64,000 nt of DNA from Ranitomeya imitator. Its lineage: Eukaryota. The notes beneath the pieces were generated by a model that saw nothing but the letters and a program-made list of their open reading frames with translations, ran no database searches and was not told the origin of the DNA. The position numbers and the translations under genes were made by a program. This document shows positions 836 through 60,082 of the stretch, piece after piece (within the stretch, counting starts at the first letter, position 1; each line of letters opens with the position of its first letter). Location: NCBI RefSeq assembly GCF_032444005.1, contig NC_091289.1, forward strand, positions 34,100,001 through 34,164,000, read 5' to 3'.

Positions 836-3411
836 ATTCACTACACCTATAATTTTTTTTTATGTTACATGCTGGATTAATCAATTTCTTAACTTTTACA
901 AGTGAAGTGTCAGTCATTAGGTACATGTCCCGATAATACATGGACAAGTATGAGATACAAGTTAGAAGACAACACCTTCAACCTTTAGATGAACAAAGCT
1001 TCTAGGTCAGCTTCCCCTGGATCGGCAAATCTCCTCGGTATCGTATAGCGGCTGTGCTCTTCTTTTTCACTTTGTGTAAGCTTTGTGCAAAGATCTTTAC
1101 AAATTCATCATGGATGGTGGAATTGATCCAGACTGAACACTGTTTTCGTATCAAGTCATCATTTTCTTACTTGAATCCCAGGGAGCTATGAGATTTTTGA
1201 TGAAGTGCAACAATCTCACTAAAGGTTGCTGAAGGGTCACTGAGATGAAGATTACCAATTGATCAGTGTTAATGGACCATAGGAGCAATAAACTACAAGA
1301 TGTTATGCAAAGGTACAGAGTGATTCCTGGGCAAGAAGACACGTCCACCGTAGTCTAAGAAAAGTTTTAAGTGGGACCTTGTGCAACAGTGTCCCAATGA
1401 GCCCCTTTTGGCTTTCGATTTTGACTCATCACCTTCCAAGAACTATACATTTTTTATAGCTTTATGAGGGCATTTTATTAGCTGGATAGAAACAAACCCC
1501 CAAAATAATACTTCATTGTTTTTGGGATCTGTTTGTTATGAAGGCTACTCTATGGTAAAGGTGACTTATCATTACCGATCACTATGATGATTCTACATTT
1601 ATTTATGCATTACTTTTTGAAATAAAAAATAAATTAAAAAAATTAGTTTGTGTCACAATATGCCGGAGAGTCAATATGCTTCCTGCAGCAAAACCAAGCA
1701 ACAAAAATTAAAATTTTGTGTAAGTTTTGTTTTAAACCAAGCTTTGTCTGTTTTTCTCTAGTGATTTTGGGGTCTGGACCCATGTCTGAATACATATTTT
1801 TGGATCTGGACTAGGGTGTGCTTTATTTTAAAGACCAATGTTGGATCTGATTTCATTTTGAGGTCTGTTTTGGTGCCTGAATTCATTTTGGGGTTTGATC
1901 AGGGGTCTGATTTAATTTTAGGGCCTTGAGTTTTATGCTTTCTGAGATCCATTCTGTATTCTCTAGAAGATAAGTTTCATTTGTTTCCTAACCTCTTCTT
2001 TCATATGTATAAACATCGTTAGCCACTTTCATTATGGTGGTAAAGTATTTCTGGGTTTGGTGCAGCACTTCAGCAATGAGGGCATATAGGGCAGATGTAG
2101 GCATAATATTGAAGGTAGTAGAATATTGTCATTGTTAAAGGGGTCAGAAAGAAAATTGTTGGGTTGTATTATGATAAAGGGGGCGTGGAGGAGTAAGGAG
2201 CCAAAGTCAGAGGTATAACCCGAATCTGAAAGTTGCTAAATGTCTGCTGTGATGCTCCGAAGACAGCACAAGATAGGAGGGCACTGAGAAGGGCAATATT
2301 TACTTTTCTATCATTTGATGTTGATTTGAAGTGTAAAAAGATATTTTTATATTTCCCAAATATTTGTAGCATAATAGACAGCTTTAGACACTAAATTAAA
2401 ATATGAAATCTAAAACTGTGTATTTTCCTGTTCAATGTACCTCTATGTTATGTGCCCCTCCCTGCATTTGGCAACTTAATCTGTCAAATTCCCATTAAAT
2501 TTATCAGTGCCCGAATTAATATGTAAATGATGTAAAAAAGTAATTTAATTTGTTTAATAAGCTTTTCTTAAAAAAAAAAAAAAAGTTAGCTACTGAAAAA
2601 ATAATTGATAATAAAAAAAATAGAAATGTCAGCAAATAGCGGATGATAAACATATGTAAATTAATTTTTTTTTTTTTTTAAATGGTGAGAAAAACAGTTT
2701 TAAAACCTCATGTGAAACTGTCAGAAGATAAACCCTGACTTATAACACTAGTCCAAGTCTCCTACAAGATCATCAGGAAATAAGTCGCCTTCAGGCAGAG
2801 AGGAAAAGGATTTTTAAATTGTTTTAAAACAAAAAAAAGAAAATTATCAGACCGAATTCACACTAGGCGGTGGAGTAAAATTAAATGTTAATGGCTTGAG
2901 GGGGAAACAAAATGCACCTCTCATACAGATCACCAATCCATGGAAGTATGAGGACAACAGTCTGAGAAATAATAAATAATGGCAATAAAATACCCAAAAG
3001 GCTAGGTCATACAGAGAAATTAGGGGGCCCATTGCAAATAATAAAAAAGACCCCTTTCTAGTGCTGGTTAATATTTTTTCACCTCCAACTATATGGGACA
3101 TTTCTGTTTGTCTCGTCTCCTGTTCATAATCAGTGGGTTAGACAGGTTATACATTGTCAAAAATGGTAGTGGGCGGGCTCCGGCTCTCCAGTGGGTCACC
3201 TTGTCGTCCATAAGGGCCAGCAGTCTCCCCTTCGTGGTGCAGAGCTTGTGGGAGTGCTTGCTCAGTCCAGATATCGCATTCAAGGAGGTCCATCGTTGGG
3301 AGGCAGTGCGCTGCTGCTCCCATCGATTATGCTGTGCGGGGACCCCAAGACCTCGGGTCCCCTGGTATTAGCTGCCCTCAGCGGGCGTAGGATGCCATAC
3401 GTGCAGGGGCA

Positions 3412-4208
3412 TTTCAAAAACCTGACCTGCACATCCAAACATAGACTAAGTGTGAACAGGTGCTGAACCCAGAGTCGCCAACTCGTATATAGTTAAGTAA
3501 ATAAGGCAGCACACTGCAGCGCTAAAACATGTAAACTTGAAAACACGAAATTTGAACTGCATTACTGCACTAGAAATATGAAAAATGAGAGCGTTTAGCG
3601 CATAAAAATGGCCAATTTTATGTGTACCTGGTAGCCACTTTACGGCATCGCTCTTATAGCAGGTCCTACGCTTGCCCTACCTCACTGAGAATAAACGTCT
3701 CCATCTGAATGGGTGCATGTGAAACCTCTTCCTAGACTAAAATTCTCTCTCAAAAATTGGCCATTTTTATGCGCTAAAAGCTCTCATTTTTCATATTTCT
3801 AGTGCAGTAATGCAGTTCAAATTTCGTGTTTTCAAGTTTGCATGTTTTGGCGCTGCAGTGTGCTGCCCTTTTTACTTAACTATATACGAGTTGGCGACTC
3901 TGGGTTCAGCACCTGTTCACACTCAGTCTATGTTTGGATGTGCAGGTCAGGTTTTTGAAATGTATTCTCTAGCCTTCTGATCGTGCACTCCGCCTCCTAG
4001 CTTCAGGTGTTTTAATTACAGCAGGTCCAATACCCCTCCACAGAGAGAGAGAATTTTAGTCCCAGAAGAGGTTTCACATGCACCCATTCAGATGGAGACG
4101 TTTATTCTCAGCGAGGTAAGGCAAATGTAGGACCTGGTATAAGAGAGATGCCGTAAAGGGGCTACCAGGTACACATAAAATTGGCCATTTTTATGCGCTA
4201 AATGCTCT
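3412..4208. mobile_element. Insertion made of two inverted, circularly permuted copies of a ~420-bp repeat (Penelope pseudo-LTR-like arrangement)
   Basis: 3412-3617 is the reverse complement of 3752-3960, and ~3588-3750 of ~4043-4208. Direct repeat CATACGTGCAGGGGCA at 3396-3411 and 4209-4224 brackets it. The PLE assignment is inference from architecture only. Confidence 0.6.
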
Positions 4209-4976
4209 CATACGTGCAGGGGCAGTCATATGGTGGGAGGTTCCCTCCAGCCTTCTCTCTCCCCCTTCGATGTCTCTGTGGTCAGGGGGTGGAGATTTAC
4301 TCCAGCGTGGTCAGGTGACTCATGGGAGTCAAATTTAAGCCTGCCATTTCCTCCTTTTGTTGCTGATTATTCTCAGTTCCGGTGGGTGGTTAAGGTCAGT
4401 GCTGTGGTGCTTCTGAGGAGGTTCATGCTTTGGTGCCTGTGCTTGATTTATTATTGTTCACTGGCCTTCAAGGATGCGCGGCAGTGTGACAGCTAGCTCC
4501 AAGTGCTCTTGCAGACTTACATGAGGTCATTTCACTATCACCCAGCATAACATACATGATAAAATCCCTGTTGTCCCTGCTATAGATATAGCAGTGCTCA
4601 AGAGCTGTGTATCACCCAGTCCACACCCATAAATGGCAGATTCCTGAGTACATTGTCAGCAAACCACCAATCATTGTTGGGGGGCAAGGTTATAATCATT
4701 AGCTGGACTGCTGGGCACGTGAGACCTAGTCTGGCAATGATAATCTGTTGCTAGTAAAACACTGATTGCATTGAAACTATAACATTTAGCCTAAAAAGAG
4801 ACACATCGCTGGAATAAGGGTGTCTTGCTCTATTATATTACTCTCAAATTAAATAGGAAAAAACTGCTGATAGATTTCCTTTAATAGAGCTGAGCTGCAA
4901 CATCGGATACAACACAAGGGACAATATGGCGCTGCCGCTACTTTTGAAACATAAGCCTTTTTTTTCAAATCCTTAA

Positions 4977-6389: not shown

Positions 6390-7090
6390 CTAAAAATGGA
6401 GACAAACACCAGAGTCAGTAAGGAGTTACAAAAGGCTTCAGACCATGCAATATAAGTCAATTGGGAGGAATGTATCAAAAATGGGGCAGTTGCCCATAGC
6501 AAATAATTAGATTTTATCTCTTATTTCAAGGGCTTTATGTTGACTTGGTCTTACAGGAAATGTACACTGACTTTTGTAGAACAAAGGAGACGCTGTTTGA
6601 CATAGAGATCGATAAACAGTATTATCGTCTTGTCATTCTCTGTTCATTATTCCACAGGAAAGAATTACCGTGAGTGCAAGCTGCTTCTCATCTCAAGACA
6701 ACAGATATTAGACATCAGACCTTCCTCGTGAGCAGCACTCACGCTAAAGTAATGCAGGGGCCCAGGAGAATAGTGGACGCTTCTCTTGACCACTTTCGAA
6801 ATAGCAACTAAGCAAAAGTAATGTGGAAATAGTAAATGTTGGTGTAACGCAAGAGTGGAAATTGCACTAAGACCAAGACCTTCAAGTGCTGCTATATACA
6901 GAGTTACAGTGTTCTTCCTTAAAAACAAATGTCAGCAGCTACTTCTTCCGATAGAACAGGAACATTTTTTTTGAAGAATATGGAGATACAGTAGAGTCAT
7001 ATTACAATTATGTAAGCCCTACAAACGACCCAGGGATTTTGGTCTTCTTTTCTGAAGTGCTACTCTTTATCAAATATCACAACCCTTCTC

Positions 7091-8151
7091 TGTTAGGACT
7101 GGCGGAACACACCAAGTATAAGGTGTAATGGTATTAGGTGCGTTCGCCGTCCGAGGTCCACCGTGCAGGTGAAAGACCCTGCTGCTAGTAAGACGGACTA
7201 TATGGCGGTACTAAGTATACACACATGGGTTAACTTCACCCTGCGTGAAGGAAGCGATCCTGTTGCGTCACAGGACCGCAGTACCGCACATAAAGCGCGA
7301 GCAAGAAGTCAGCGGACTCAACCCCTACACAGGATTGAAGTCCGATTAGACACTTGCTGGCACAACACCGCAACTGGGTGTGTCAGAGGAATATAAATAA
7401 TAATATAAAGGCACAAAAGTGCGTGCGGTGCCGCACTGACGGATGCCACTGACCACCCAGGCTTGGGTCAGGAAAGCGCACAGCAAGCGCACGGCGCCGT
7501 ACTGGCGGACACAGCAACTGGTAGCTGAAATGTGTGTTTCGTGCTGTTGGATAAGTCGGGCGCTAGATAGCAAACATACACCTTCCGCGAACAGACATTC
7601 AATAGGGAGGGTTATTTAAAGAGCGACTTTCACTCACAACACACACACATATTTACAAGACAATACTAGCGCATGGCCGTGCGGCCATGCGAGGCTTAAA
7701 TAGCTGCAGCATGTTTAGGACCTTCCAAAGAAGGACCAATGGAGTGCTGCAGCACCTGAGCATGTGACCCTGGATCTCCACTGAGAGATCTCGCCCTGGG
7801 CATGCTCAGAGTGCAAAGCAGGATTTAGTCCTAGCAGCTACAAGGACCTTAGCTGCAGTATCTGATCATGTGACCCTTGATCTCCACTGAGAGATCTTAC
7901 TCTGGGCATGCTCAGAATGTAAAAAGCAGGACTTAGCCCCAGAAACGTCCGCTCGCCGCTGCCCAGCACTGACTTCAATGGGAGAAGCAGGAAACGCAGC
8001 AGTAACTCTAAGCACAGAGTCAGACTGAGCGAGACGCTGGGATCGACGTCTCTGCTGAGCAAGCTCCACTGCGGCAGGAGAAGAATGGGAGACCGCAGTG
8101 GAGATGGCCCGAGATTCCCCCTGTGCAGAGGCAGGAACTCGACCCCTAACA
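7091..8151 (-). repeat. 3' LTR of the gypsy element
   Basis: TG...CA termini; 10 substitutions counted by eye versus 12322-13382, no net length difference. Confidence 0.95.
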
Positions 8152-9209
8152 TTACCCACCCTCCTAGGGCCCCCCCGTCCTTGGGCCACGCTACGTTCGA
8201 AGGCAGCAATGAGCTGCGGAGCCCGAATGTGCTCAGCAGGCTCCCAGGACCTGTCCTCAGGGCCATAACCCTTCCAATCCACCAAATAGAATTTTTTACC
8301 ACGTACCACCTTGTACCCCAAAATAGCGTTCACCTCGTAATCATCCGTAGACGAACCCGATGTCCCGGCAGATGACTCAGAAAACCGGGACATGTATACG
8401 GGCTTAAGGAGGGACACATGAAAGGTGTCGGTGATACCAAGGCGTGGAGGAAGGGCCAGACGGTAGACCACAGGATTAACCTGTTCGAGGACCTTGAAGG
8501 GACCCAAGTAGCGAGGTGCAAACTTAGTGGACTCTACATGCAGCCTGATGTTACGGGCGGAGAGCCACACTAAATCGCCAGGAGCAAAGGTCGGGGCAGG
8601 GCGCCGATGTGCATCGGCGGAGGACCTCATTCTCTCCTTTGAGGCCCGAATGGCATCCTGAGTGCGGTCCCAAATGTCCCGTGCCTCCACTGCCCAGTCT
8701 GCCACCCTGGAGTCAGCAGAGGACACGGGCATAGGCACAGGAACCCGCGGATGCTGGCCGTAATTAAGGAGGAAAGGAGTCTGACCGGTGGAGTCGGCTA
8801 CGGCATTGTTAAGTGCGAACTCTGCCCATGGTAATAAAGATGCCCAGTCATCCTGCCTGGCAGAAACAAAATGTCGTAGATATGTGACCAGAGTCTGATT
8901 GGCCCTCTCTACCAACCCATTCGTCTCGGGATGATATGCGGAAGAGAGATTTAACTCAATGCTGAGAAGACGACAAAGCTCTCTCCAGAACCGAGACGCA
9001 AACTGGGGACCCCGGTCACTGACAATTTTGTCTGGCATGCCGTGTAGGCGGAAGATGTGTCTTATGAACAACGCTGCCAAGGCCCGTGCAGAAGGTAACC
9101 GTGGGAGCGGCACCAAATGCACCATTTTCGAGAAATGATCGGTAATAACCCAAATGACGGTACAGCCGCGAGACTTGGGCATACCCACTACAAAGTCCAT
9201 CCCGACCAT
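7866..9209 (-). CDS. Integrase core + GPY/F + chromodomain (distal gag-pol, downstream of the premature stop); frame stays open into the 3' LTR
   Basis: MDFVV (D), VSDRGPQF (D), PETNGLVER (E), GPFKV, chromodomain YEVNAILGYKVVRGKKFYLVDWKGYGPEDRSWEP; same frame as 9213-12293. Confidence 0.9.
   Translation of the reverse strand: MVGMDFVVGMPKSRGCTVIWVITDHFSKMVHLVPLPRLPSARALAALFIRHIFRLHGMPDKIVSDRGPQFASRFWRELCRLLSIELNLSSAYHPETNGLVERANQTLVTYLRHFVSARQDDWASLLPWAEFALNNAVADSTGQTPFLLNYGQHPRVPVPMPVSSADSRVADWAVEARDIWDRTQDAIRASKERMRSSADAHRRPAPTFAPGDLVWLSARNIRLHVESTKFAPRYLGPFKVLEQVNPVVYRLALPPRLGITDTFHVSLLKPVYMSRFSESSAGTSGSSTDDYEVNAILGYKVVRGKKFYLVDWKGYGPEDRSWEPAEHIRAPQLIAAFERSVAQGRGGPRRVGNVRGRVPASAQGESRAISTAVSHSSPAAVELAQQRRRSQRLAQSDSVLRVTAAFPASPIEVSAGQRRADVSGAKSCFLHSEHAQSKISQWRSRVT
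8152..8164 (-). promoter_or_regulatory. Polypurine tract
   Basis: Minus strand GGAGGGTGGGTAA directly abuts the TG of the 3' LTR. Confidence 0.8.
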
Positions 9210-9212
9210 CTC

Positions 9213-12200
9213 TCAGGGCCTGTCTGCCACCGGCAAGGGATAGAGTAACCCAGACGGCCGTTGTCGAGGAGACTTATTTTTGGCGCATGAGACACATGCC
9301 AGAACGTAATCTCTGACATCTCGGAGCATATGCGGCCACCAGTACGTCCTCGCCAGCAGCTCAGATGTCCTTTTTGTCCCAAAGTGTCCCCCCACCCTGG
9401 AGGAATGAGCCCAAGAGAGAACCTCCGGTCGCAAATTTATGGGCACAAAAGTCTTGCCCGGAGGCACAGACTCAAGCGACACCGGAGCCACGGTTCTCAA
9501 GCTCTCAGATGGAACAATAAGCCGAGGCTCTCCTTCCTCCTCCTCAGATGACACAACAGAGCGAGAAAGGGCATCAGCTCGAATGTTCTTCTCCCCAGCG
9601 AGATAATGGAGGGTGAAGTGGAATCGGGAGAAGAATAAGGACCATCTGGCCTGGCGAGAATTTAGCTGCTGGGCTGTTTGCAAATATAGCAAATTTTTGT
9701 GGTCAGTGAAAACTTGAAAGGGAAAACAAGCCCCCTCCAAGAGATGTCTCCACTCTGAGAAAGCCAATTTCATCGCTAGCAACTCCCTGTCCCCAATGGA
9801 ATAATTCCTCTCCGCTGGTGTGAAGGTCTTGGAGAAGAAGAAGCATGGATGCTTCCGACCTTGAGCATCCTTTTGGAAGAGGACTGCTCCAGCACCAACG
9901 GAAGAGGCATCCACCTCCATTATAAACGGCTTATCGACATCGGGACGATGTAGGATGGGAGCGCTAGCAAAATGAGACTTAGTAGAAGAAAAGGCCCTGG
10001 ACACCTCTTCAGACCACACTTTGGGATTTGCTCCCTTCTTGGTGAGGGCTACCAAGGGAGCTACCAGAGTTGAGAAGTGGGGAATGAACTGGCGGTAATA
10101 ATTAATGAACCCCATAAAGCGCTGCACCGCCTTAAGAGAATGGGGCTCTTGCCAGTCCATCACAGCCTGTAGTTTGGCAGGATCCATAGCCAATCCCTGG
10201 GCGGAGATGATATAGCCCAGGAACGGTAAAGACTCCTGCTCAAACATACACTTCTCCAACTTTGCATAAAGAGAGTTTGCCCGTAGGAGGTCGAAGACTC
10301 TGCCAACATCTCTCCGGTGGGAGTCAATATCTGGAGAAAAGATGAGAATATCATCCAGATAGACTACAACCGAGGTGGAAAGCATATCCCGGAAGATGTC
10401 GTTGACAAAGTCTTGGAAAACGGCTGGGGCATTACAGAGCCCAAAGGGCATCACCAGATACTCATAGTGCCCATCTCTGGTGTTAAACGCCGTTTTCCAT
10501 TCGTCCCCCTCACGGATGCGAATCAGGTTGTAAGCACCCCGCAGATCTAGTTTGGTAAACACCCTTGCTCCCCGAAGCCTATCGAAAAGCTCAGATATCA
10601 AGGGCAAAGGATACTTGTTCTTAACGGTGATAGCGTTAAGACCCCTGTAGTCTATGCATGGACGTAGTTCCCCATTCTTCTTCTGCACGAAAAAGAACCC
10701 TGCCCCAGCAGGTGACACTGACTTCCTGATGAACCCTCTTGCCAGATTCTCTTGAATGTACTGAGACATTGCCTCCGTCTCTGGGAGAGATAATGGATAG
10801 ACTCTACCCAGGGGAGGCTCAGCACCAGGCAAGAGATCAATAGGACAGTCATAGGGGCGATGGGGCGGAAGGGTCTCCGCCGCCTTTTTGGAGAACACGT
10901 CTGCATACGACCAATATTGCTTGGGGAGAGAGGATAGATCTGCGGGTACCTCTGTAGTAGCAACCTGAACGCACTCTCGGTGACAACTACCCCCACATGA
11001 TTCACCCCATCCCAGAATTCTGCCTGAGGACCACTCGATGTGAGGAGAGTGGTACCGTAACCAAGGTATCCCCAAAAGGACCTCATCAATCCCCTCAGGA
11101 ATGATGAGCAGAGATATAATCTCCTGATGGGATGGTGACATGGACAGAGTAAAAGGGATGGTCTGATGTGTTATCCGTGCGGGCAGTGTCGACCCATTCA
11201 CCACTCGTACCGTTACTGGTTGAGGTAGCATAACCAGGGGTATTGCGTGACGTTGGGCGAAGGCAGAAGACATAAAATTGCCCTCCACCCCAGAATCCAC
11301 GCAGAGGTCTACCGAGTGGGAGGATGTGCCTAATGTTATTGTCCCCTTAAAGGATAATTTGGAGGCAAACGTCGCCGTGTCTAGTGCACCTCCACCTACT
11401 ACCACTAGACGCTGACGTTTCCTCGACCGCTGGAGACATCTGGTGGCAAGATGTCCTGACTGTTGGCAAACATGACAAACCTGGAGTGCACGAGCAGTCC
11501 GGGACTTAGATCCCGCTCGTGACACTACCATAGGCTCATGGGACTCAGGAGCCTGGACTGGAGATTCCAAAGGTTTGGCGAAGGTGGGAGCCAGCCGAAA
11601 CCTCTGCCTACACTGGGCTCGCTCTAACATCCGCTCGTGAAAACGGAGGTCAATACGAGTGGATACTGTTATTAATTCCTCCAGTGTGGCGGGAATCTCC
11701 CTAGTGGCCAGGGCGTCCTTAATGTGGTCAGCCAGCCCCCTCCAAAATATAGGAATAAGGGCCTTATCCGACCACTCCAGCTCAGATGCTAGCGTGCGGA
11801 AGTGGACGGCAAACTGGCTGACCAAGGATGAGCCCTGAGTCAATGCCAACAGTTGGAGCGCCGTATCATGGGTGACACGAGGTCCTAAAAAGACCTGTTT
11901 CAGAGTGCTCAGGAATAACGGAGCACTCTGCACCACATGATCGCCACGCTCCCACAGCGGCGTAGCCCACTGCAACGCCCTGTCCGACAATAAAGATACA
12001 ATAAAGCCCACCTTAGCCCGCTCTGTAGGGAAACGAGAGGCCAGAAGCTCGAGATGTATTGAGCACTGACTCACGAAACCCCTACAGGACTTACTGTCAC
12101 CAGAAAATTTCCCTGTTAGCGGGAGGTGAGATAGCGTCGGTACAGGGGCGGCAGTGGACAAGGTAGCTGCAGCCACACTTGCAGCCTGAACAGCGACAGC

Positions 12201-12293
12201 AGTAACATCCACAGCTGAGGTTGAACGCTCAAGAGCTGCCAACCTTCCCTCCAGCTGCTGGATGTACCGCTGTAGACGCTGATCGTCCGTCAT
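9213..12293 (-). CDS. Gag-Pol polyprotein (Gag, CCHC knuckle, protease, RT, RNase H, integrase HHCC), cut by an in-frame TGA
   Basis: CHVCQQSGHLATRC, VDSG, LPPHRPYDCPIDL, YLDD, EVDAS, TDHKNL, HSSRVGGHFG..CVSC; ends RP-TGA-EMVGMDF where RPWEMVGMDF is expected. Confidence 0.93.
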   Translation of the reverse strand: MTDDQRLQRYIQQLEGRLAALERSTSAVDVTAVAVQAASVAAATLSTAAPVPTLSHLPLTGKFSGDSKSCRGFVSQCSIHLELLASRFPTERAKVGFIVSLLSDRALQWATPLWERGDHVVQSAPLFLSTLKQVFLGPRVTHDTALQLLALTQGSSLVSQFAVHFRTLASELEWSDKALIPIFWRGLADHIKDALATREIPATLEELITVSTRIDLRFHERMLERAQCRQRFRLAPTFAKPLESPVQAPESHEPMVVSRAGSKSRTARALQVCHVCQQSGHLATRCLQRSRKRQRLVVVGGGALDTATFASKLSFKGTITLGTSSHSVDLCVDSGVEGNFMSSAFAQRHAIPLVMLPQPVTVRVVNGSTLPARITHQTIPFTLSMSPSHQEIISLLIIPEGIDEVLLGIPWLRYHSPHIEWSSGRILGWGESCGGSCHRECVQVATTEVPADLSSLPKQYWSYADVFSKKAAETLPPHRPYDCPIDLLPGAEPPLGRVYPLSLPETEAMSQYIQENLARGFIRKSVSPAGAGFFFVQKKNGELRPCIDYRGLNAITVKNKYPLPLISELFDRLRGARVFTKLDLRGAYNLIRIREGDEWKTAFNTRDGHYEYLVMPFGLCNAPAVFQDFVNDIFRDMLSTSVVVYLDDILIFSPDIDSHRRDVGRVFDLLRANSLYAKLEKCMFEQESLPFLGYIISAQGLAMDPAKLQAVMDWQEPHSLKAVQRFMGFINYYRQFIPHFSTLVAPLVALTKKGANPKVWSEEVSRAFSSTKSHFASAPILHRPDVDKPFIMEVDASSVGAGAVLFQKDAQGRKHPCFFFSKTFTPAERNYSIGDRELLAMKLAFSEWRHLLEGACFPFQVFTDHKNLLYLQTAQQLNSRQARWSLFFSRFHFTLHYLAGEKNIRADALSRSVVSSEEEEGEPRLIVPSESLRTVAPVSLESVPPGKTFVPINLRPEVLSWAHSSRVGGHFGTKRTSELLARTYWWPHMLRDVRDYVLACVSCAKNKSPRQRPSGLLYPLPVADRP

Positions 12294-12309
12294 TACTAGC
12301 CAGACCTGG

Positions 12310-12320
12310 GCGCTAGTATT
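12310..12320 (-). promoter_or_regulatory. Primer-binding site of self-priming type (non-tRNA)
   Basis: Minus strand AATACTAGCGC starts 1 nt after the 5' LTR. It has no TGG and is exactly complementary to GCGCTAGTATT at 12903-12893 in the LTR. Confidence 0.8.
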
Positions 12321-12321
12321 A

Positions 12322-13382
12322 TGTTAGGACTGGTGGAACGCACCAAGTATAAGGTGTAATGGTATTAGGTGCGTTCGCCGTCCGAGGTCCACCGTGCAGG
12401 TGAAAGACCCTGCTGCTAGTAAGACGGACTATATGGCGGTACTAAGTATACACACATGGGTTAACTTCACCCTGCGTGAAGGAAGCGATCCTGTTGCGTC
12501 ACAGGACCGCAGTACCGCACATAAAGCGCGAGCAAGAAGTCAGCGGACTCAACCCCTACACAGGATTGAAGTCCGATTAGACACTTGCTGGCACAACACC
12601 GCAACTGGGTGTGTCAGAGGAATATATATAATAATATAAAGGCACAAGAGTGCGTGCGGTGCAGCACTGACGGATGCCACTGACCACCCAGGCTTGGGTC
12701 AGGAAAGCGCAGAGCAAGCGCACGGCGCCGTACTGGCGAACACAGCAACTGGTAGCTGAAATGTGTGTTTCGTGCTGTTGCATAAGTCGGGCGCTAGATA
12801 GCAAACATACACCTTCCGCGAACAGACATTCAATAGGGAGGGTTATTTAAAGAGCGACTTTCACTCACAACACACACAAATATTTACAAGACAATACTAG
12901 CGCATGGCCGTGCGGCCATGCGAGGCTTAAATAGCTGCAGCATGTTTAGGACTTTCCAAAGAAGGACCAATGGAGTGCTGCAGCACCTGAGCATGTGACC
13001 CTGGATCTCCACTGAGAGATCTCGCCCTGGGCATGCTCAGAGTGCAAAGCAGGATTTAGTCCTAGCAGCTACAAGGACCTTAGCTGCAGTATCTGATCAT
13101 GTGACCCTTGATCTCCACTGAGAGATCTTACTCTGGGCATGCTCAGAATGTAAAAAGCAGGACTTAGCCCCAGAAACGTCCGCTCGCCGCTGCCCAGCAC
13201 TGACTTCAATGGGAGAAGCAGGAAACGCAGCAGTAACTCTAAGCACAGAGTCAGACTGAGCGAGACGCTGGGATCGACGTCTCTGCTGAGCAAGCTCCAC
13301 TGCGGCAGGAGAAGAATGGGAGACCGCAGTGGAGATGGCCCGAGATTCCCCCTGTGCAGAGGCAGGAACTCGACCCCTAACA
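12322..13382 (-). repeat. 5' LTR of the gypsy element with TATA-like box (12933-12927) and predicted TSS near 12903
   Basis: TG...CA termini; minus strand TATTTAA lies 30 nt before GCGCTAGTATT; U3 carries a ~110-bp imperfect tandem duplication. Confidence 0.95.
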
Positions 13383-15475
13383 CTTCTCTGTAGCCTCCTC
13401 ATTCTACAGATTAGTGGATGTCTAAGTGGTCAGACTTCCAATACCTGCATGTCATCTCTTGCTGGCCTCCATGATGCAACGGCAAATGCCTGGAGGAGCA
13501 CATTTTGAATGGGAATCTGCATTTTTCAAATGTCATAAAGTGATGGCATATCTTTAAGCTATGCTATCACTTTATGATCGTTGGGAGTCCAACTCCCCTA
13601 GTGTTCCATGTCCTTCTACGCTTCATTGTACAGAGGTGATTTGGGCTTTCCAGTTTTGCGGAGAACAGAGCAGGAAATCTGCAGGTAACTACTTGCTGGC
13701 ACCACGCTTGTGTAGGACCACTCTGAAGTATATAGGATGATATGTGGTGCCCCTGATCTCCTTAGATAGCCCTAGCAAAACTTACCGCGATGAAAGGTGA
13801 TGAAAGAGATGATTGGATGTAATAGCAACAGTTGATAAGTGAGAGTCCAGAGTCTAAAAAGTAATTATAAATATGGTGATAATATCTTATGATTCTTTGC
13901 TTGTGACTCAACCCGTTTCCCCATCTTTCCAGGTTCATCAGGGGGCTTGATGCGACTAGGAGTAGGCAATGAAGGTCACAGGCTCCTTCTGGTGTTCCTT
14001 ATGGTAATGGTGATGTGCTTTAAATATGCCTCCATAATCAGGGTTTTGTTAATTCTAGCCCTCTTAATAAAGTTACTATTCAACAATACAGGCCCACCCT
14101 GTCATCACGATAGTAAATGGTGCTGGACCATAGAGGTTGCAGTGTCCATATTAGATCAGAGCTTCTGCTCTTCTATAGTCTGCGCATGCTTTATAGCGCA
14201 ATCAGGATGGCAATAATCAGTGTACTCGTGACTAGAGCACACATCCGAATATGCAAACGTCTGTTTGGAAGCGCATGCGCTGTACATCAAACTGTGTGCG
14301 CATGCGCTGTACGCCCAACTTTGTGCGCATGCACTCCAAATCGGAACGCAAAGCATTTCTCCTTGTCCGTATATATGGCCAGATGTGAACATGACCTATA
14401 ATATGGACAGAATACACCTGCTGCAAATAATGAAGCCTTTGATTACAATCATCAGACGTGCTTAAGACAACATCAGTGGTGACATTTTATGTTAAATTTG
14501 GAGAAAACACTTGATATACTGTATATGTTGCGTTGAGCTATTTAAATTATTCTCGATTAATTGGTTTATTGCAAACAGCAGAAAGTTTGTCACATTCTGC
14601 TAATAAAACAAATTTGCAATGAGGGTTTGATTATTTGATTGCAATTGTATGTCTGCAACTTGTTGCCTTGTTGATGTCTATGGCATTTAGCCTGCATACA
14701 ATGATACCAATTTCTGTAGGTACATTAAAATATTGGAAAGACACCAAAAAAAGTTTCCTCAAAAGCTATCATGTCAGATCAAAACTTCTCGAGAGAAGAA
14801 TATAAAGACTAGATAATGATGACATCTTGATATTACAAGCCACAAATTGTCTGAACCATAGAATGAAAGGCGACCAAACAAACGCTAGATCAATATCACA
14901 TCTTATGGAAAGCCTATAAACATCATTATAAATTACAATTACAGCATTATTTCACTGTAATCAATGCGAAGAGAACAGCAGGACATCACTAATCTGCATT
15001 TTTCTATTACATGGATATGATGATCAATAAACTCCCTGAAATGTGCAACATTCACTTTATTATATCGATATGGACTTTTTTTTTTATAATTAGCATTCTT
15101 ACTAAAGAGCAGAATCAGTTTGTGCCACAGAAAAAAATATTGCATTTCTACTAAATGGTACAAAGAAAATTGCTGGTTGGTTACTGCACCAATAAGAAGA
15201 GAAAAAAAAGAGAGAAAATGATGGTGTTATGATTCAATTAGAGTCATACATTCAGAATTTAGGGTTAAATATACTGCTACTACCCTCATCACAGATGCAT
15301 TGAGTCATTCCTGTCACAATTCTAACTCTCAGTGTGTCTGGGATAGTCTCTTCTGATAGGAGGATGACTAGAACTCTAGTGCCACCTATTGGAAGTAGCA
15401 ATCCTAGCAGTCAATGTCGACTCTTTAACGAGCCTTGTCACATGACTTAGGATAAGAACCAAACCAAAATCTCAA

Positions 15476-15520
15476 TTTGCAGACACTGTGTTTTGGGGTA
15501 CTGCCCCTCGTCAGTGCAAA
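15476..15520 (-). ncRNA. Minimal type I hammerhead ribozyme motif, G12->A (probably inactive)
   Basis: TTTGCA CTGACGA GGGG-CAGTA-CCCC AAA ACACAGTGT C TGCAAA: stem I TTTGCA/TGCAAA, stem II GGGG/CCCC, short near-palindromic stem III, GUC site; GAAA reads AAAA. Confidence 0.7.
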
Positions 15521-15729
15521 GTGGAGATCTGGTTTGGCTGAGTGAGAGGCGTCTGACCGTGATAGTCCTCTTCCTCTCTGAAGAGACTATTTGCATATTT
15601 CACAGAGGAGCATTACGGCTTTAAGTCTCCTCATCTCGGCATACTTAAGATGTCACTCTCCGCAAGGAGAAACGTTACTGCTTGGCTCACGGTCAGAGGC
15701 CTCTCACGCAGCCAAACCAGATCTCACAC

Positions 15730-15774
15730 TTTGCACTGATGAGGGGCAGTACTCCAAAACACAGTGTCTGCAAA
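15730..15774 (+). ncRNA. Minimal type I hammerhead ribozyme motif, G12->A (probably inactive)
   Basis: TTTGCA CTGATGA GGGGCAGTACTCC AAA ACACAGTGT C TGCAAA; cleavage triplet GUC ends at 15768. Confidence 0.7.
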
Positions 15775-15980
15775 TTGAGATTCTGGCTCGGCTTTTATCC
15801 TAAGTGATGTGACAAGGCTCGTTAAAGGGTCGACATTGACTTTTAGGATTGCCACTTCCAAAGGGTGGCACTAGAGTTCTAGTCATCTTCTACTATTTGA
15901 ATACTCCATCTGGTTTGAAATCTCTTGTTGCATAGCATACTACATATACATATATACATATATATACTGTTTATATACAC

Positions 15981-22129: not shown

Positions 22130-22600
22130 TCCTCGGGGAAATTAAATATGCAAATTACCTCTTTAGAGAAGAAGAGGACTTGAACTCTAGTGCCACCTTT
22201 TGGAAGTAGCAATCCTAAAAGTCAATATCGACCACTTAGCGGGCAGTGCAACATGACTTAGAATAAAAGCCAAATCAGAATCTCTATTTGCAGATGTGTT
22301 GCCCCTCTTCAGTGCAAAGCATGGGATCTAATTTGGTTGTGTGAGAGACCACAAGGAAAAACATTACATTATAGACCCCAGGCAAATGCCTCTCATACTG
22401 CCAAATCAGATCTTTGCACTGAGGAAAGGCAACACCCCGAAAAGCATGTCTAAAAATTGAGAGTCTAGTTCGACTTTAATGCTAAGTCAAGTGACAAGGC
22501 TCATTAAAGGGTTGATATTAACTATTAGGATTGATACTTCCAATGTGAGGCACTAGAGTTCATGTCCTCTTCCTCTTTGAAAAGGCAATTTGTATATTAC
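22130..22600. mobile_element. Older copy of the Penelope-derived inverted hammerhead element
   Basis: Arms homologous to 15362-15890 (GAACTCTAGTGCCAC...GGCACTAGAGTTC). The plus HHR at 22413-22456 keeps CTGAGGA, GAAA and GTC but has eroded stems; the minus HHR at ~22287-22318 is internally deleted. Confidence 0.65.
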
Positions 22601-25990: not shown

Positions 25991-28900
25991 CCGTATATAC
26001 TCGAGTATAAGCCGAGATTTTCAGCCCATTTTTTTGGGCTGAAAGTCCCCCTCTCGGCTTATACTCGAGTCATATACCCGGGTGTCAGCAGGGGAGGGAG
26101 AGCGGGGGCTGTGTAATCATACTTACCTGCTCCCAGCGCGGTCCCTGCAGTCCCTGGCTTCTCCGGCGCTGCAGATTCTTCCTGCACTGAGCGGTCACAT
26201 GGCACCGCTCATTACAGAAATGAATAGGCAGCTCCACCCCCATAGGGGAGGAGCCGCATATTCATTGCTGTAAATGATCGGTGCCATGTGACCGCTCAAT
26301 TACAGGAAGAAGCTGCAGCGCCGGAGAAGCCAGGGACTGCAGGGACCGCGCCGCAGCAGGTAAGGGGAGCGCAGCGCTATAATTACCTGCTCCTCGCTCC
26401 GGCTCCGTCTGCAGCGTGCAGCAATGACGCTCAGGTTAGAGGGCGCTGTGACGTAGTCAGTGCGCGCCCTCTGCTGAGCGTCAGTGCTGGAGACGGAGCC
26501 GCACGGAGCAGGTAATTATTGAAAGCGCCGGCGTCCTGAGAAGAGAGGTGAGTATGTGATTTTTTTTTTTTTATGGCAGCACCAGCAGCATTCTAAGGAG
26601 CACCTATGGGGCCATAAAGGTGCAGAGCATATATGGGGCACAGCATTATAAGGAGCACCTATGGGGCCATAAAGGTGCAGAGCATATATGGGGCACAGCA
26701 TTATAAGGAGCACCTATGGGGCCATAAAGGTGCAGAGCATATAAGGGGCACAGCATTATAAGGAGCACCTATGGGGCCATAAAGGTGCAGAGCATATATG
26801 GGGCACAGCATTATAACGAGCATCTATGGGGCCATAAAGGTGCAGAGCATATATGGGGCACAGCATTATAAGGAGCACCTATGGGGCCATAAAGGTGCAG
26901 AGCATATAAGGGGCACAGCATTATAAGGAGCATCTATGGGGCCATAAAGGTGCAGAGCATATAAGGGGCACAGCATTATAAGGAGCACCTATGGGGCCAT
27001 AAAGGTGCAGAGCATATAAGGGGCACAGCATTATAAGGAGCACCTATGGGGCCATAAAGGTTCAGAGCATATATGGGGCACAGCATTATAAGGAGCACCT
27101 ATGGGGCCATAAAGGTGCAGAGCATATATGGGGCACAGCATTATAAGGAGCACCTATGGGGCCATAAAGGTGCAGAGCATATATGGGGCACAGCATTATA
27201 AGGAGCACCTATGGGGCCATAAAGGTGCAGAGCATATATGGGGCACAGCATTATAAGGAGCATCTATGGGGCCATAAAGGTGCAGAGCATATATGGGGCA
27301 CAGCATTATAAGGAGCACCTATGGGGCCATAAAGGTGCAGAGCATATATGGGGCACAGCATTATAAGGAGCACCTATGGGGCCATAAAGGTGCAGAGCAT
27401 ATAAGGGGCACAGCATTATAAGGAGCACCTATGGGGCCATAAAGGTGCAGAGCATATATGGGGCACAGCATTATAAGGAGCACCTATGGGGCCATAAAGG
27501 TGCAGAGCATATATGGGGCACAGCATTATAAGGAGCACCTATGGGGCCATAAAGGTGCAGAGCATATAAGGGGCACAGCATTATAAGGAGCACCTATGGG
27601 GCCATAAAGGTGCAGAGCATATATGGGGCACAGCATTATAAGGAGCACCTATGGGGCCATAAAGGTGCAGAGCATATATGGGGCACAGCATTATAAGGAG
27701 CACCTATGGGGCCATAAAGGTGCAGAGCATATAAGGGGCACAGCATTATAAGGAGCACCTATGGGGCCATAAAGGTGCAGAGCATATAAGGGGCACAGCA
27801 TTATAAGGAGCACCTATGGGGCCATAAAGGTGCAGAGCATATAAGGGGCACAGCATTATAAGGAGCATCTATGGGGCCATAAAGGTGCAGAGCATATAAG
27901 GGGCACAGCATTATAAGGAGCACCTATGGGGCCATAAAGGTGCAGAGCATATAAGGGGCACAGCATTCTAAGGAGCACCTATGGGGCCATAAAGGTGCAG
28001 AGCATATATGGGGCACAGCATTATAAGGAGCACCTATGGGGCCATAAAGGTGCAGAGCATATATGGGGCACAGCATTATAAGGAGCACCTATGGGGCCAT
28101 AAAGGTGCAGAGCATATAAGGGGCACAGCATTATAAGGAACACCTATGGGGCCATAAAGGTGCAGAGCATATAAGGGGCACAGCATTATAAGGAGCACCT
28201 ATGGGGCCATAAAGGTGCAGAGCATATAAGGGGCACAGCATTATAAGGAGCACCTATAGGGCCATAAAGGTGCAGAGCATATAAGGGGCACAGCATTATA
28301 AGGAGCACCTATGGGGCCATAAAGGTGCAGAGCATATATGGGGCACAGCATTATAAGGAGCACCTATGGGGCCATAAAGGTGCAGAGCATATAAGGGGCA
28401 CAGCATTATAAGGAGCACCTATGGGGCCATAAAGGTGCAGAGCATATAAGGGGCACAGCATTATAAGGAGCACCTATGGGGCCATAAAGGTGCAGAGCAT
28501 ATATGGGGCACAGCATTATAAGGAGCGCCTATGGGGCCATAAAGGTGCAGAGCATATATGGGGCACAGCATTATAAGGAGCACCTATGGGGCCATAAAGG
28601 TGCAGAGCATATAAGGGGCACAGCATTATAAGGAGCACCTATGGGGCCATAAAGGTGCAGAGCATATAAGGGGCACAGCATTATAAGGAGCACCTATGGG
28701 GCCATAAAGGTGCAGAGCATATAAGGGGCACAGCATTATAAGGAGCACCTATGGGGCCATAAAGGTGCAGAGCATATATGGGGCACAGCATTATAAGGAG
28801 CACCTATGGGGCCATAAAGGTGCAGAGCATATATGGGGCACAGCATTATAAGGAGCATCTATGGGGCCATAAAGGTGCAGAGCATATATGGGGCACAGCA

Positions 28901-31900
28901 TTATAAGGAGCACCTATGGGGCCATAAAGGTGCAGAGCATATAAGGGGCACAGCATTATAAGGAGCACCTATGGGGCCATAAAGGTGCAGAGCATATATG
29001 GGGCACAGCATTATAAGGAGCACCTATGGGGCCATAAAGGTGCAGAGCATATAAGGGGCACAGCATTATAAGGAGCACCTATGGGGCCTTAAAGGTGCAG
29101 AGCATATAAGGGGCACAGCATTATAAGGAGCACCTATGGGGCCATAAAGGTGCAGAGCATATATGGGGCACAGCATTATAAGGAGCACCTATGGGGCCAT
29201 AAAGGTGCAGAGCATATAAGGGGCACAGCATTATAAGGAGCACCTATGGGGCCATAAAGGTGCAGAGCATATAAGGGGCACAGCATTATAAGGAGCACCT
29301 ATGGGGCCTTAAAGGTGCAGAGCATATAAGGGGCACAGCATTATAAGGAGCACCTATGGGGCCATAAAGGTGCAGAGCATATAAGGGGCACAGCATTATA
29401 AGGAGCACCTATGGGGCCATAAAGGTGCAGAGCATAAAAGGGGCACAGCATTATAAGGAGCACCTATGGGGCCATAAAGGTGCAGAGCATATATGGGGCA
29501 CAGCATTATAAGGAGCGCCTATGGGGCCATAAAGGTGCAGAGCATATATGGGGCACAGCATTATAAGGAGCACCTATGGGGCCATAAAGGTGCAGAGCAT
29601 ATAAGGGGCACAGCATTATAAGGAGCACCTATGGGGCCATAAAGGTGCAGAGCATATAAGGGGCACAGCATTATAAGGAGCACCTATGGGGCCATAAAGG
29701 TGCAGAGCATATAAGGGGCACAGCATTATAAGGAGCACCTATGGGGCCATAAAGGTGCAGAGCATATATGGGGCACAGCATTATAAGGAGCACCTATGGG
29801 GCCATAAAGGTGCAGAGCATATATGGGGCACAGCATTATAACGAGCACCTATGGGGCCATAAAGGTGCAGAGCATATAAGGGGCACAGCATTATAAGGAG
29901 CACCTATGGGGCCATAAAGGTGCAGAGCATATATGGGGCACAGCATTATAAGGAGCACCTATGGGGCCATAAAGGTGCAGAGCATATAAGGGGCACAGCA
30001 TTATAAGGAGCACCTATGGGGCCTTAAAGGTGCAGAGCATATAAGGGGCACAGCATTATAAGGAGCACCTATGGGGCCATAAAGGTGCAGAGCATATATG
30101 GGGCACAGCATTATAAGGAGCACCTATGGGGCCATAAAGGTGCAGAGCATATATGGGGCACAGCATTATAAGGAGCACCTATGGGGCCATAAAGGTGCAG
30201 AGCATATAAGGGGCACAGCATTATAAGGAGCACCTATGGGGCCATAAAGGTGCAGAGCATATAAGGGGCACAGCATTATAAGGAGCACCTATGGGGCCAT
30301 AAAGGTGCAGAGCATATATGGGGCACAGCATTATAAGGAGCACCTATAGGGCCATAAAGGTGCAGAGCATATAAGGGGCACAGCATTATAAGGAGCACCT
30401 ATGGGGCCATAAAGGTGCAGAGCATATATGGGGCACAGCATTATAAGGAGCACCTATGGGGCCATAAAGGTGCAGAGCATATATGGGGCACAGCATTATA
30501 AGGAGCACCTATGGGGCCATAAAGGTGCAGAGCATATATGGGGCACAGCATTATAAGGAGCACCTATGGGGCCATAAAGGTTCAGAGCATAAATGGGGCA
30601 CAGCATTATAAGGAGCACCTATGGGGCCATAAAGGTGCAGAGCATAAATGGGGCACAGCATTATAAGGAGCACCTATGGGGCCATAAAGGTGCAGAGCAT
30701 ATATGGGGCACAGCATTATAAGGAGCACCTATGGGGCCATAAAGGTGCAGAGCATATATGGGGCACAGCATTATAAGGAGCACCTATGGGGCCATAAAGG
30801 TGCAGAGCGTAAATGGGGCACAGCATTATAAGGAGCACCTATGGGGCCATAAAGGTGCAGAGCATAAATGGGGCACAGCATTATAAGGAGCACCTATGGG
30901 GCCATAAAGGTGCAGAGCATATAAGGGGCACAGCATTATAAGGAGCACCTATGGGGCCATAAAGGTGCAGAGCATATATGGGGCACAGCATTATAAGGAG
31001 CACCTATGGGGCCATAAAGGTGCAGAGCATATATGGGGCACAGCATTATAAGGAGCACCTATGGGGCCATAAAGGTGCAGAGCATATAAGGGGCACAGCA
31101 TTCTAAGGAGCACCTATGGGGCCATAAAGGTGCAGAGCATATAAGGGGCACAGCATTATAAGGAGCACCTATGGGGCCATAAAGGTGCAGAGCATATAAG
31201 GGGCACAGCATTATAAGGAGCACCTATGGGGCCATAAAGGTGCAGAGCATATAAGGGGCACAGCATTATAAGGAGCACCTATGGGGCCATAAAGGTGCAG
31301 AGCATATATGGGGCACAGCATTATAAGGAGCACCTATGGGGCCATAAAGGTGCAGAGCATATATGGGGCACAGCATTATAAGGAGCACCTATGGGGCCAT
31401 AAAGGTGCAGAGCATATAAGGGGCACAGCATTATAAGGAGCACCTATGGGGCCATAAAGGTGCAGAGCATATAAGGGGCACAGCATTATAAGGAGCACCT
31501 ATGGGGCCATAAAGGTGCAGAGCATATAAGGGGCACAGCATTATAAGGAGCACCTATGGGGCCATAAAGGTGCAGAGCATATATGGGGCACAGCATTATA
31601 AGGAGCACCTATGGGGCCATAAAGGTGCAGAGCATATAAGGGGCACAGCATTATAAGGAGCACCTATGGGGCCATAAAGGTGCAGAGCATATATGGGGCA
31701 CAGCATTATAAGGAGCACCTATGGGGCCATAAAGGTGCAGAGCATATAAGGGGCACAGCATTATAAGAAGCACCTATGGGGCCTTAAAGGTGCAGAGCAT
31801 ATATGGGGCACAGCATTATAAGGAGCACCTATGGGGCCATAAAGGTGCAGAGCATATATGGGGCACAGCATTATAAGGAGCACCTATGGGGCCATAAAGG

Positions 31901-39009: not shown

Positions 39010-39462
39010 TGTCAGCGCACAAGGGAGGGGATAATTAATGAGCGACTTTCACACGTCAATACACACACGTTTACAAGTGTACACTAGTGCATGGCCGAGC
39101 GGCCATGCAAATCTTTTATAGCGGCAGTGCTACAAGACCTTCCAGATGGTCCAATAGGAGCCGCAACAGGACCTGAGCATGTGACCCCGGACCTCCAATG
39201 GGAGGTCGTCCCGTGGGCATGCTCAGTAAGGGAAAAGCAGGACTTAGTCCCAGAAAGACCTGTTTGCTGATGAACATTGCTGGCTACAAGGACTGAGCCT
39301 GGAAGGGCAGTAGTAACCAGTCATCCAGTATCAGCCTGAGCTTGACGCTGGGACCGACGTCTCCGCTGAGCAGACTCTACTGTGGCTGGAGAAGAATGGG
39401 AGACCTCAGCGGAGATGGTTCAAGATTCCCCCTGTGCAGAGGCGGGAACTTGACACCTAACA
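39010..39462 (-). mobile_element. Truncated LTR (U3 + R) of a sister subfamily of the 7091-13382 element
   Basis: Shares GAGCGACTTTCAC, GCATGGCC..GGCCATGC, GAGCATGTGACC and AGATTCCCCCTGTGCAGAGGC; ends CCTAACA at 39462; lacks the U3 duplication. Confidence 0.85.
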
Positions 39463-39684
39463 CAATTTAAGCCTAGTTTTAAGAATTCTAATAAAATATA
39501 AATATTTTCTATGATTTAGGTTTCTTTACCATTCATTCTACTTTATTGAGGTCCTCATGATCCATTTTATTTTAGAGTGACCTTTTATAGTTGCCATAGT
39601 GGCCACCCTACGATACATCTGTGCAATAATCATGTGTCTAATCAGTATCTGTAAGGTGGATGGATTTTCTCAGCAAACGAGAAA

Positions 39685-42215: not shown

Positions 42216-42260
<45 letters not shown>

Positions 42261-43440: not shown

Positions 43441-43640
43441 GTGCTTCAGTGACAGTCCTGCGTGTGGGGCATCTCTCTAATTTGCAGCCACCAAAAAAAG
43501 AGTGTGTAACATTGGGCCTGATTTTCGCTGTGGTCTCACCAACCTGTAAAGGGGTAGCTAAATCATACTGAAGTTATAGCTCACCGTGTAAGTTGTGTGA
43601 CTGCAACAAATAACGTTAGTTTGGTTACGTTTTTAAAACA

Positions 43641-60037: not shown

Positions 60038-60082
<45 letters not shown>

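What the first reader, a model, noticed from the sequence alone, without database searches (positions are those of the whole stretch)
12291..12933. Self-priming reverse transcription signature in an amphibian chromovirus (11-nt PBS pairs with the transcript's own 5' end)
Seen: there is no TGG-type tRNA PBS after the 5' LTR. The minus strand reads CA|T-AATACTAGCGC, and its exact 11-nt complement GCGCTAGTATT sits in the LTR (12903-12893), 30 nt downstream of TATTTAA (12933-12927), where transcription should start. A competing hairpin (ACTAG-CGC-CCAG-GT-CTGG-CTAGT) overlaps the PBS just ahead of the gag AUG. Established: S. pombe Tf1 primes from an 11-nt duplex between its first bases and the PBS, and self-priming has been proposed for vertebrate Tf1/sushi elements. 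Inference: this young element uses the same tRNA-independent priming, possibly with a priming/translation switch.
Basis: partly seen in the sequence, partly recalled or inferred. Interest (0 to 1): 0.75.

Follow-up and report, generated by a model that had tools for sequence, protein, structure and literature searches.

The report
Self-priming frog retrotransposon, known family trait
A young jumping gene, likely from a poison frog, has no tRNA landing site and instead carries 11 bases that match the predicted start of its own RNA, so it likely starts copying itself with its own RNA end, a trick proven in yeast Tf1 and already proposed for this vertebrate group.

Summary
Observation confirmed. 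A young Ty3/gypsy chromovirus (minus strand, 99%-identical LTRs 13382-12322 and 8151-7091, nearest proteins from poison frogs) has no tRNA-type PBS. The bases at 12320-12310 pair exactly with 12903-12893, 30 nt below TATTTAA (14 of 20,000 shuffles). Four related loci that group with fish and frog proteins each carry their own, differently lettered primer/PBS pair with the same geometry, matching only their own LTR. The two flanking helices of the Tf1 'pretzel' are predicted too. Self-priming is therefore likely (0.88), but it is the published hallmark of the Tf1/sushi group, already proposed for vertebrates; this scan noted it earlier in mosses, diatoms and BEL/Pao elements. Instead a predicted 15-bp duplex between the LTR's 3' end and the gag start buries the AUG. 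Similar duplexes score as specific in 3 of 4 relatives tested. That is the only possibly new point, and no effect on translation is shown. No start-site data were obtained. This copy's integrase is interrupted by a stop codon.

The parts
12322..13382 (-). 5' LTR, 1061 bp, TGTTAGG...CCTAACA termini
   Evidence: self-BLAST; ends and 10 differences from the 3' LTR
7091..8151 (-). 3' LTR, 99.06% identical (K2P distance 0.0095)
13383..13388 (-). target-site duplication, 5' copy (6 bp)
7085..7090 (-). target-site duplication, 3' copy (6 bp)
12927..12933 (-). TATA-like box TATTTAA, 30 nt above the primer (predicted promoter)
   Evidence: aligns with TATAAAA in the diverged LTR fragment of the window
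12901..12922 (-). perfect 9-bp inverted repeat at the predicted U3/R border, overlapping the first 3 primer bases
   Evidence: 8 bp of it kept in the diverged LTR; function unknown
12893..12903 (-). predicted self-primer, first 10-11 nt of the transcript
   Evidence: exact complement of the PBS; start site not measured
12415..12429 (-). LTR arm of the predicted outer duplex, pairs with 12300-12285
12385..12390 (-). LTR arm of the predicted middle helix, pairs with 12307-12302 just 3' of the PBS
12327..12383 (-). predicted inner stem-loop at the LTR 3' end (U5-IR-like), just 5' of the PBS
   Evidence: variants at 12334 and 12379 in other copies keep or improve pairing
12310..12320 (-). primer-binding site, one base after the LTR's CA; lies in a predicted 19-nt single-stranded loop
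12285..12300 (-). 3' arm of the outer duplex, containing the gag AUG (12293-12291)
   Evidence: the AUG matches the first residue of P0003 and P0004
9213..12293 (-). gag-pol in one frame: capsid, CCHC knuckle, protease, RT, RNase H, integrase zinc finger; ends at an in-frame stop (9215-9213) that interrupts the integrase
7866..9212 (-). rest of the integrase: core, SH3, chromodomain (about 8339-8193); the frame runs on into the 3' LTR
8152..8165 (-). polypurine tract and short spacer before the 3' LTR
39022..39463 (-). fragment of a related LTR (77% identical): TATAAAA at the same place, different letters at 4 of the 11 primer positions, PBS not present

Best explanation
This is a young vertebrate-clade Tf1/sushi chromovirus whose PBS pairs exactly with 11 bases of its own LTR and which likely primes reverse transcription with the 5' end of its own RNA instead of a tRNA. 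Shown in the sequence: LTR pair, no tRNA-type PBS, the 11-nt complement, its place 30 nt below a TATA-like box, and the same layout with other letters in four relatives. Predicted by folding: the PBS is held open in a 19-nt loop between an inner stem at the LTR end and outer helices, the outermost of which buries the gag AUG. Inferred from Tf1: transcription starts at about G12903; the 5' end loops back onto the PBS, making a pseudoknotted three-duplex 'pretzel'; the element's RT/RNase H cuts after base 10 or 11; the freed 3'-OH is extended across the LTR to give minus-strand strong-stop DNA. This copy cannot make a whole integrase and would need one in trans.
For: Exact 11-nt complement, 14 of 20,000 shuffles. 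RT tree: window, frog and fish proteins and loci L001-L005 form one clade, FastTree support 1.0. L001-L004 (4 of 4 testable; L005 lacks the LTR 5' part) have complements of 11, 10, 10 and 9 nt in their own LTR; the best of 30 non-cognate pairings is 8 nt. In all five elements the complement starts at a G after T, has an AT-rich TATA-like 7-mer at -29 to -31, and the PBS ends at +11 or +12 after the LTR. Local fold z = -3.9, 0 of 200 shuffles as stable; PBS mean P(unpaired) 0.79. With the start at 12903 the primer:PBS duplex is in the minimum-energy fold of the whole 634-nt leader. Literature passages: Tf1 uses its first 11 bases, cut by RNase H (PMC7175516); self-priming and the pretzel are features of Tf1/sushi (10.1101/2022.12.06.519325).
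Against: No start-site, cleavage or cDNA evidence. TATA-like matches in L001 and L002 are only 5 of 7, and my scoring broke ties towards -30. The nested fold gives primer:PBS 0.38 and outer duplex 0.6 as alternatives; the pseudoknot itself was not modelled. Local fold z-scores in the five relatives are weak (-0.3, -0.7, -2.4, +0.6, -1.3). Five of 14 loci with LTR ends fixed by the repeat pair, all outside the vertebrate clade, lack a TATA-linked complement. A 7-nt second partner for the primer lies at 12797-12791 (-12.1 vs -16.6 kcal/mol). No reference Tf1 or sushi-ichi sequence was in the tree, and no frog tRNA set was compared.
Confidence: 0.88

Rival explanations
1. A host tRNA fragment or other small RNA primes at this PBS; the LTR complement is a secondary structure partner or a relic.
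For: Half-tRNA priming exists in some copia lineages (PMC6317226 passages). No frog tRNA set was available to exclude a match.
Against: Five vertebrate-clade elements have five different PBS sequences, each matched only by its own LTR at the predicted start; a host primer would need five separate matches. No TGG within 19 nt of the LTR end.
Confidence: 0.05
2. The complement is real and selected but serves another role, such as closing the leader for packaging or dimerisation, or priming in trans from the second packaged RNA, and the true start site lies elsewhere.
For: Start site unmeasured; the same 11-mer is in the 3' LTR copy, so a 3'-end or second-molecule partner is possible. In 5 non-vertebrate loci a complement sits 88 nt from the LTR end with no TATA box, i.e. 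a purely structural match.
Against: Fixed distance of about 30 nt from a TATA-like box and a T|G start in 5 of 5 vertebrate-clade elements is what a 5'-terminal primer predicts; Tf2 RACE/CAGE places the self-primer at the start of R (PMC5341516 passages).
Confidence: 0.06
3. One reading: a local hairpin over the PBS and just ahead of the AUG toggles the RNA between priming and translation.
For: A 7-bp stem (12318-12312/12300-12294, -8.5 kcal/mol) can form, and has probability about 0.85 in an RNA that lacks the LTR 3' arm, as a short downstream-initiated transcript like that of Tf2 would.
Against: Probability 0.01 in the full leader; the drawn inner stem needs a 2-nt loop; 12308 differs in other copies; the stem does not cover the AUG triplet; in the free folds of relatives L002-L005 the AUG region pairs with the LTR, not with the PBS.
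Confidence: 0.07
4. The 11-nt match is chance or an artefact of this copy.
For: Only the post-hoc nature of looking for complements.
Against: 14 of 20,000 shuffles before counting the position below the TATA box; repeated with different letters in 4 of 4 testable relatives.
Confidence: 0.01

Closest known systems
Vertebrate Tf1/sushi group = V-clade chromoviruses (sushi-ichi of Takifugu, Amn-ni of Danio, Amn-san of Xenopus tropicalis); Butler et al. 2001 not held, known from citing passages
   Same: Chromodomain integrase, gag-PR-RT-RH-IN order, CCHC Gag, TGT..ACA termini like the Sushi motif in PMC3601003, RT groups with fish and frog elements, no tRNA PBS, self-primer complement and predicted pretzel.
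   Different: New host family (likely Dendrobatidae); long 1061-bp LTR with the primer 582 nt from the LTR end against 237-415 nt in L001-L004; gag and pol in one frame, whereas most non-yeast members are said to frameshift; no AATAAA or ATTAAA in the LTR; 6-bp target duplication.
Tf1/Tf2 of Schizosaccharomyces pombe and Tj1 of S. japonicus (self-priming shown for Tf1)
   Same: 11-nt complement between predicted RNA start and PBS; helices on both sides of the PBS; chromodomain; single gag-pol frame as in Tf1/Tf2.
   Different: Gag has a CCHC knuckle, which the fission-yeast elements lack; PBS starts one base after the LTR; the outer helix here includes the gag AUG; nothing here is shown by experiment.
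HIV-1 U5-AUG duplex (search listing; reference titles in PMC3362945)
   Same: A long-range duplex between the LTR 3' part and the gag start codon that encloses the PBS domain.
   Different: tRNA-primed retrovirus, no sequence relation; analogy only. One cited title states that the HIV-1 leader switch does not regulate translation.

Membership tests
Ty3/gypsy (Metaviridae) LTR retrotransposon | LTR pair with TG..CA ends, TSD, PPT, gag-PR-RT-RH-IN order | tested here: met
Chromovirus | chromodomain at the integrase C-terminus | tested here: met
   PF00385, E 3e-13, residues 292-340 of P0002
V-clade / vertebrate Tf1/sushi | RT-RH phylogeny with vertebrate chromoviruses | tested here: met
   clade with Leptobrachium, Takifugu, Cyprinus, Oryzias and other fish proteins, FastTree support 1.0
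V-clade / vertebrate Tf1/sushi | placement against named reference elements (sushi-ichi, Amn-san, Tf1) | not tested
   no named reference sequence was delivered by any search; the Takifugu proteins P0024 and P0027 are not labelled sushi
Tf1/sushi self-priming group | no tRNA-complementary PBS (no TGG next to the LTR) | tested here: met
   nearest TGG at +20
Tf1/sushi self-priming group | PBS not complementary to an internal tRNA fragment | not testable with these tools
   no frog tRNA set; 0 tRNA genes in the window, 0 Rfam matches over the element
Tf1/sushi self-priming group | PBS complementary to 9-12 nt of the element's own LTR below a TATA box | tested here: met
Tf1/sushi self-priming group | primer and PBS change together between families | tested here: met
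   cognate 9-11 nt in 5 of 5 testable elements, non-cognate at most 8 nt in 30 pairings; within frog subfamilies not tested
Tf1/sushi self-priming group | three-duplex pretzel: LTR sequences pair with both PBS-flanking stretches | tested here: met
   predicted helices 12383-12368/12344-12327, 12390-12385/12307-12302, 12429-12415/12300-12285; prediction only, pseudoknot not modelled
Tf1/sushi self-priming group | transcript 5' end coincides with the primer's first base | not testable with these tools
   only contigs were available; they cannot show RNA starts
Tf1/sushi self-priming group | RT/RNase H cleaves the 5' end to free the primer | not testable with these tools
   needs RNA or cDNA end mapping

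The most novel reading that the evidence does not exclude
In vertebrate Tf1/sushi elements the outer arm of the self-priming pretzel is built from the gag start codon region itself (in L001 the first in-frame AUG lies inside the PBS), so an RNA folded for priming cannot be translated: a built-in choice between mRNA and genome, convergent with the HIV-1 U5-AUG duplex, with Gag made from a refolded or shorter RNA.
Probability: 0.25. Interest if true: 0.55.

Novelty: new member of a known kind. Interest (0 to 1): 0.3.

Why it matters
Self-priming has been shown by experiment only for yeast Tf1; for vertebrate elements it is a sequence-based proposal, as far as the passages I read say. A young, apparently high-copy frog family with a clean primer, PBS and pretzel offers an observational test in a vertebrate by mapping RNA and cDNA ends. 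The conserved burial of the gag AUG, if functional, would link priming and translation in the lineage related to the mammalian sushi-ichi-derived genes. The mechanism itself is not new.

Tried and rejected
No whole genome is held, so frog copies could not be aligned. Viral contigs: 0 relatives in 2 scans. The look-up of sequencing runs: no RNA holder on record, only contigs; read laying gave no start or end sites (table 6 empty), and no variant row inside the primer or PBS among 40 rows shown, but 337 rows were not shown, so this says nothing. Rfam: 0 matches on 6900-13600. ARAGORN: 0 tRNAs. The sigma-70 scan is irrelevant to a Pol II promoter. A broad duplex test (whole post-PBS stretch against shuffled LTR ends) was not significant for the window (65 of 500), L001 (216) or L004 (125), only for L002 (14), L003 (2) and L005 (3); the narrower 28-nt test was chosen after seeing the folds. 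Splice-made primer as in earlier BEL/Pao notes: rejected, the complement is contiguous in the LTR, and the joints listed across it have no GT..AG ends. A primer-covering hairpin at the U3/R border as a clade feature: present in 5 of 5 vertebrate-clade elements but from -3.4 to -18.6 kcal/mol and with no control run, so not claimed. Papers not held: Lin and Levin 1998, Butler 2001, Esnault and Levin 2015. The first tree missed the loci through a script error and was redone.

Full report
What is there. The finding lies in a full-length LTR element on the minus strand. The LTRs are 13382-12322 and 8151-7091, 1061 bp each, with 10 differences, TGTTAGG...CCTAACA ends, a 6-bp target duplication and a polypurine tract. 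The K2P distance between the LTRs is 0.0095, so the insertion is young; I assume no rate and give no date. One frame from the AUG at 12293 encodes capsid, a CCHC knuckle, protease, RT, RNase H and the integrase zinc finger; an in-frame stop at 9215-9213 interrupts the integrase, whose core, SH3 and chromodomain follow in the same frame. The nearest proteins are from Ranitomeya imitator (83-94% identity, four best hits), then Phyllobates, fish and Leptobrachium (88 hits among 7999 scored candidates). The host is therefore likely a dendrobatid frog (inference).

The observation. After the LTR's CA come one T and AATACTAGCGC (12320-12310). Its exact complement is at 12903-12893 and in the 3' LTR, nowhere else in the window; TATTTAA is at 12933-12927. 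Of 20,000 dinucleotide shuffles of the LTR, 14 hold an 11-nt complement to a stretch starting 0-3 nt after the CA. With one G-U pair the duplex extends to 13 bp. A 77%-identical LTR fragment elsewhere in the window has TATAAAA at the aligned place, which supports the TATA reading.

The pretzel. Jia and colleagues (10.1101/2022.12.06.519325, passages) state that Tf1 priming needs three duplexes: primer with PBS, and each PBS-flanking stretch with LTR sequence. Both flanking sets are predicted here: an inner stem 12383-12368/12344-12327, a helix 12390-12385/12307-12302, and an outer duplex 12429-12415/12300-12285 of 7 + 8 bp with the U of the AUG bulged. The PBS sits in a 19-nt single-stranded loop, mean P(unpaired) 0.79; the local fold has z = -3.9, 0 of 200 shuffles as stable. 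In the whole leader from 12903 the primer:PBS duplex is in the minimum-energy fold, at P 0.38 against 0.6 for the outer duplex; the two cross, and the pseudoknot was not modelled. These are single positions, not phased copies.

Covariation across families. A scan of metagenome contigs (5 of 64 parts scanned, best 80 of 590 kept, 79 loci) gave 5 loci, L001-L005, that fall in one clade with the window and the fish and frog proteins, FastTree support 1.0 (102 sequences, no named Tf1 or sushi reference). L001, L002 and L004 have LTR ends fixed by the repeat pair; L003's end was placed by eye and is not a canonical ACA; L005 lacks the 5' part of its LTR and cannot be tested. The four testable loci have complements of 11, 10, 10 and 9 nt in their own LTR; among 30 non-cognate pairings the longest is 8 nt. 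In these four and the window the complement starts at a G after T, an AT-rich 7-mer matching TATAWAW at 5 or 6 of 7 lies at -29 to -31 (ties were broken towards -30), and the PBS ends at +11 or +12. Three of five have a 2-nt spacer, so the true primer may be 10 nt, with the eleventh pair optional (inference). Over all loci: 25 of 79 had a flanking repeat; I dropped 8 whose repeat did not end at an LTR end and 3 more whose 3' end was not covered by the pair, leaving 14. Nine of 14 have a 9-12-nt complement 29-34 nt below a TATA-like box (L036 with one G-U); 5 of 14, one non-vertebrate clade, do not. A looser scan of 34 loci gave 14 more candidates, but there the LTR end was chosen by the signal, and several share one PBS, so I do not count them.

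The AUG duplex. In all six vertebrate-clade elements the first long-frame AUG lies 3-29 nt after the LTR. A 28-nt window around the AUG pairs best with its own LTR end in the window, L002, L003 and L005 (-25 to -28 kcal/mol; 0, 2, 3 and 0 of 150 internal control windows as strong; 14, 6, 16 and 0 of 1000 shuffles) but not in L004 (56 of 150; 198 of 1000). L001 was left out because its AUG lies in the PBS. The window size was chosen after seeing the folds, and a broader test was not significant for the window itself (65 of 500). The paired letters differ between families, so this looks selected, but it may simply be the pretzel's outer arm landing on the AUG because the leader after the PBS is short. 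No effect on translation is shown; a reference title in PMC3362945 (title only) says the analogous HIV-1 switch does not regulate translation.

Mechanism. Shown: anatomy, complement, family-level covariation. Predicted: the flanking helices and open PBS. Inferred from Tf1 (PMC7175516 passages): start at about 12903, loop-back, RNase H cut after base 10 or 11, extension into the LTR. Confidence 0.88. Rivals are a tRNA fragment primer (0.05), a non-priming or trans role of the complement (0.06) and chance (0.01). The local-hairpin switch (0.07) is a separate add-on claim.

Comparison with what is known. Passages read: PMC6317226 (self-primers described in Tf1/sushi from yeast and vertebrates), 10.1101/2022.12.06.519325 (self-priming a common feature of the group, pretzel), PMC4600332 (implicated from fungi to vertebrates), PMC2774666 (V-clade in fish, amphibians and amniotes, Amn-san from X. 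tropicalis), PMC3601003 (Sushi LTR motifs), PMC5341516 (Tf2 short and long transcripts), PMC2864245, PMC4340606 (not relevant). Butler 2001, Lin and Levin 1998 and Esnault and Levin 2015 were not held, so I cannot say whether the vertebrate pretzel drawings already include the AUG. Six searches listed no paper on experimental self-priming in a vertebrate element or on an AUG-burying duplex in this group; the library lacks most subscription papers. Earlier notes of this scan report the same signature in moss chromoviruses, diatom copia and BEL/Pao elements and none in vertebrates; they are unchecked and not counted as support.

Verdict. A real and clean example of a known kind: works like Tf1, and meets every membership feature of vertebrate Tf1/sushi elements that could be tested. 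Novelty: new member of a known kind. Interest 0.3. The boldest reading left open, a priming-versus-translation choice through the AUG duplex, I put at probability 0.25 and interest 0.55.

Noticed in passing
13388-13383 and 7090-7085: The target-site duplication is 6 bp, whereas 7 of 8 related loci checked have 5 bp and one has none; none of those 8 is in the vertebrate clade.
   Followed up: partly
13382-12322: The LTR has no AATAAA or ATTAAA on the sense strand, while L001, L003 and L004 have AATAAA 52-75 nt before the LTR end. The poly(A) signal is unexplained.
   Followed up: partly
12903-12294: The predicted 610-nt leader holds 5 upstream AUGs, all out of frame with gag, with ORFs of 4-68 codons, and is strongly folded (z -6.1 on 20 shuffles): hard to scan, which suggests a shorter or refolded mRNA.
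   Followed up: partly
12922-12901: Perfect 9-bp inverted repeat between the TATA-like box and the primer, largely kept in the 77%-identical LTR fragment; it would cover the first primer bases in any RNA that includes U3, such as the 3' end of the genome.
   Followed up: partly
13178-12977 and 7947-7746: Two copies of a 106-bp tandem unit in U3 of both LTRs.
   Followed up: no
8151-7866: The integrase frame runs through the PPT and about 95 codons into the 3' LTR before stopping.
   Followed up: no
43620-47216 (+): 1198-codon frame with BED zinc finger and hAT dimerisation domain, flanked by tandem arrays of 150, 243 and 128 bp; the arrays at 40751-43122 recur at 58572-60944: likely a large hAT transposon region.
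   Followed up: no
26586-32230: Very homogeneous 55-bp satellite, about 103 copies, 97% matches.
   Followed up: no
3410-4211, 15360-15890, 22145-22598: Long inverted repeats typical of miniature transposons; the last two are related.
   Followed up: no
L033, L050, L064, L067, L072: One non-vertebrate chromovirus clade has neither a TGG PBS nor a TATA-linked complement, only an 8-nt match about 88 nt from the LTR end: priming mode unexplained.
   Followed up: partly
L001:1263-1275: The first in-frame AUG of a 1470-codon single gag-pol frame lies inside the PBS, at +3 after the LTR; downstream AUGs at +63 to +75 are alternatives.
   Followed up: partly
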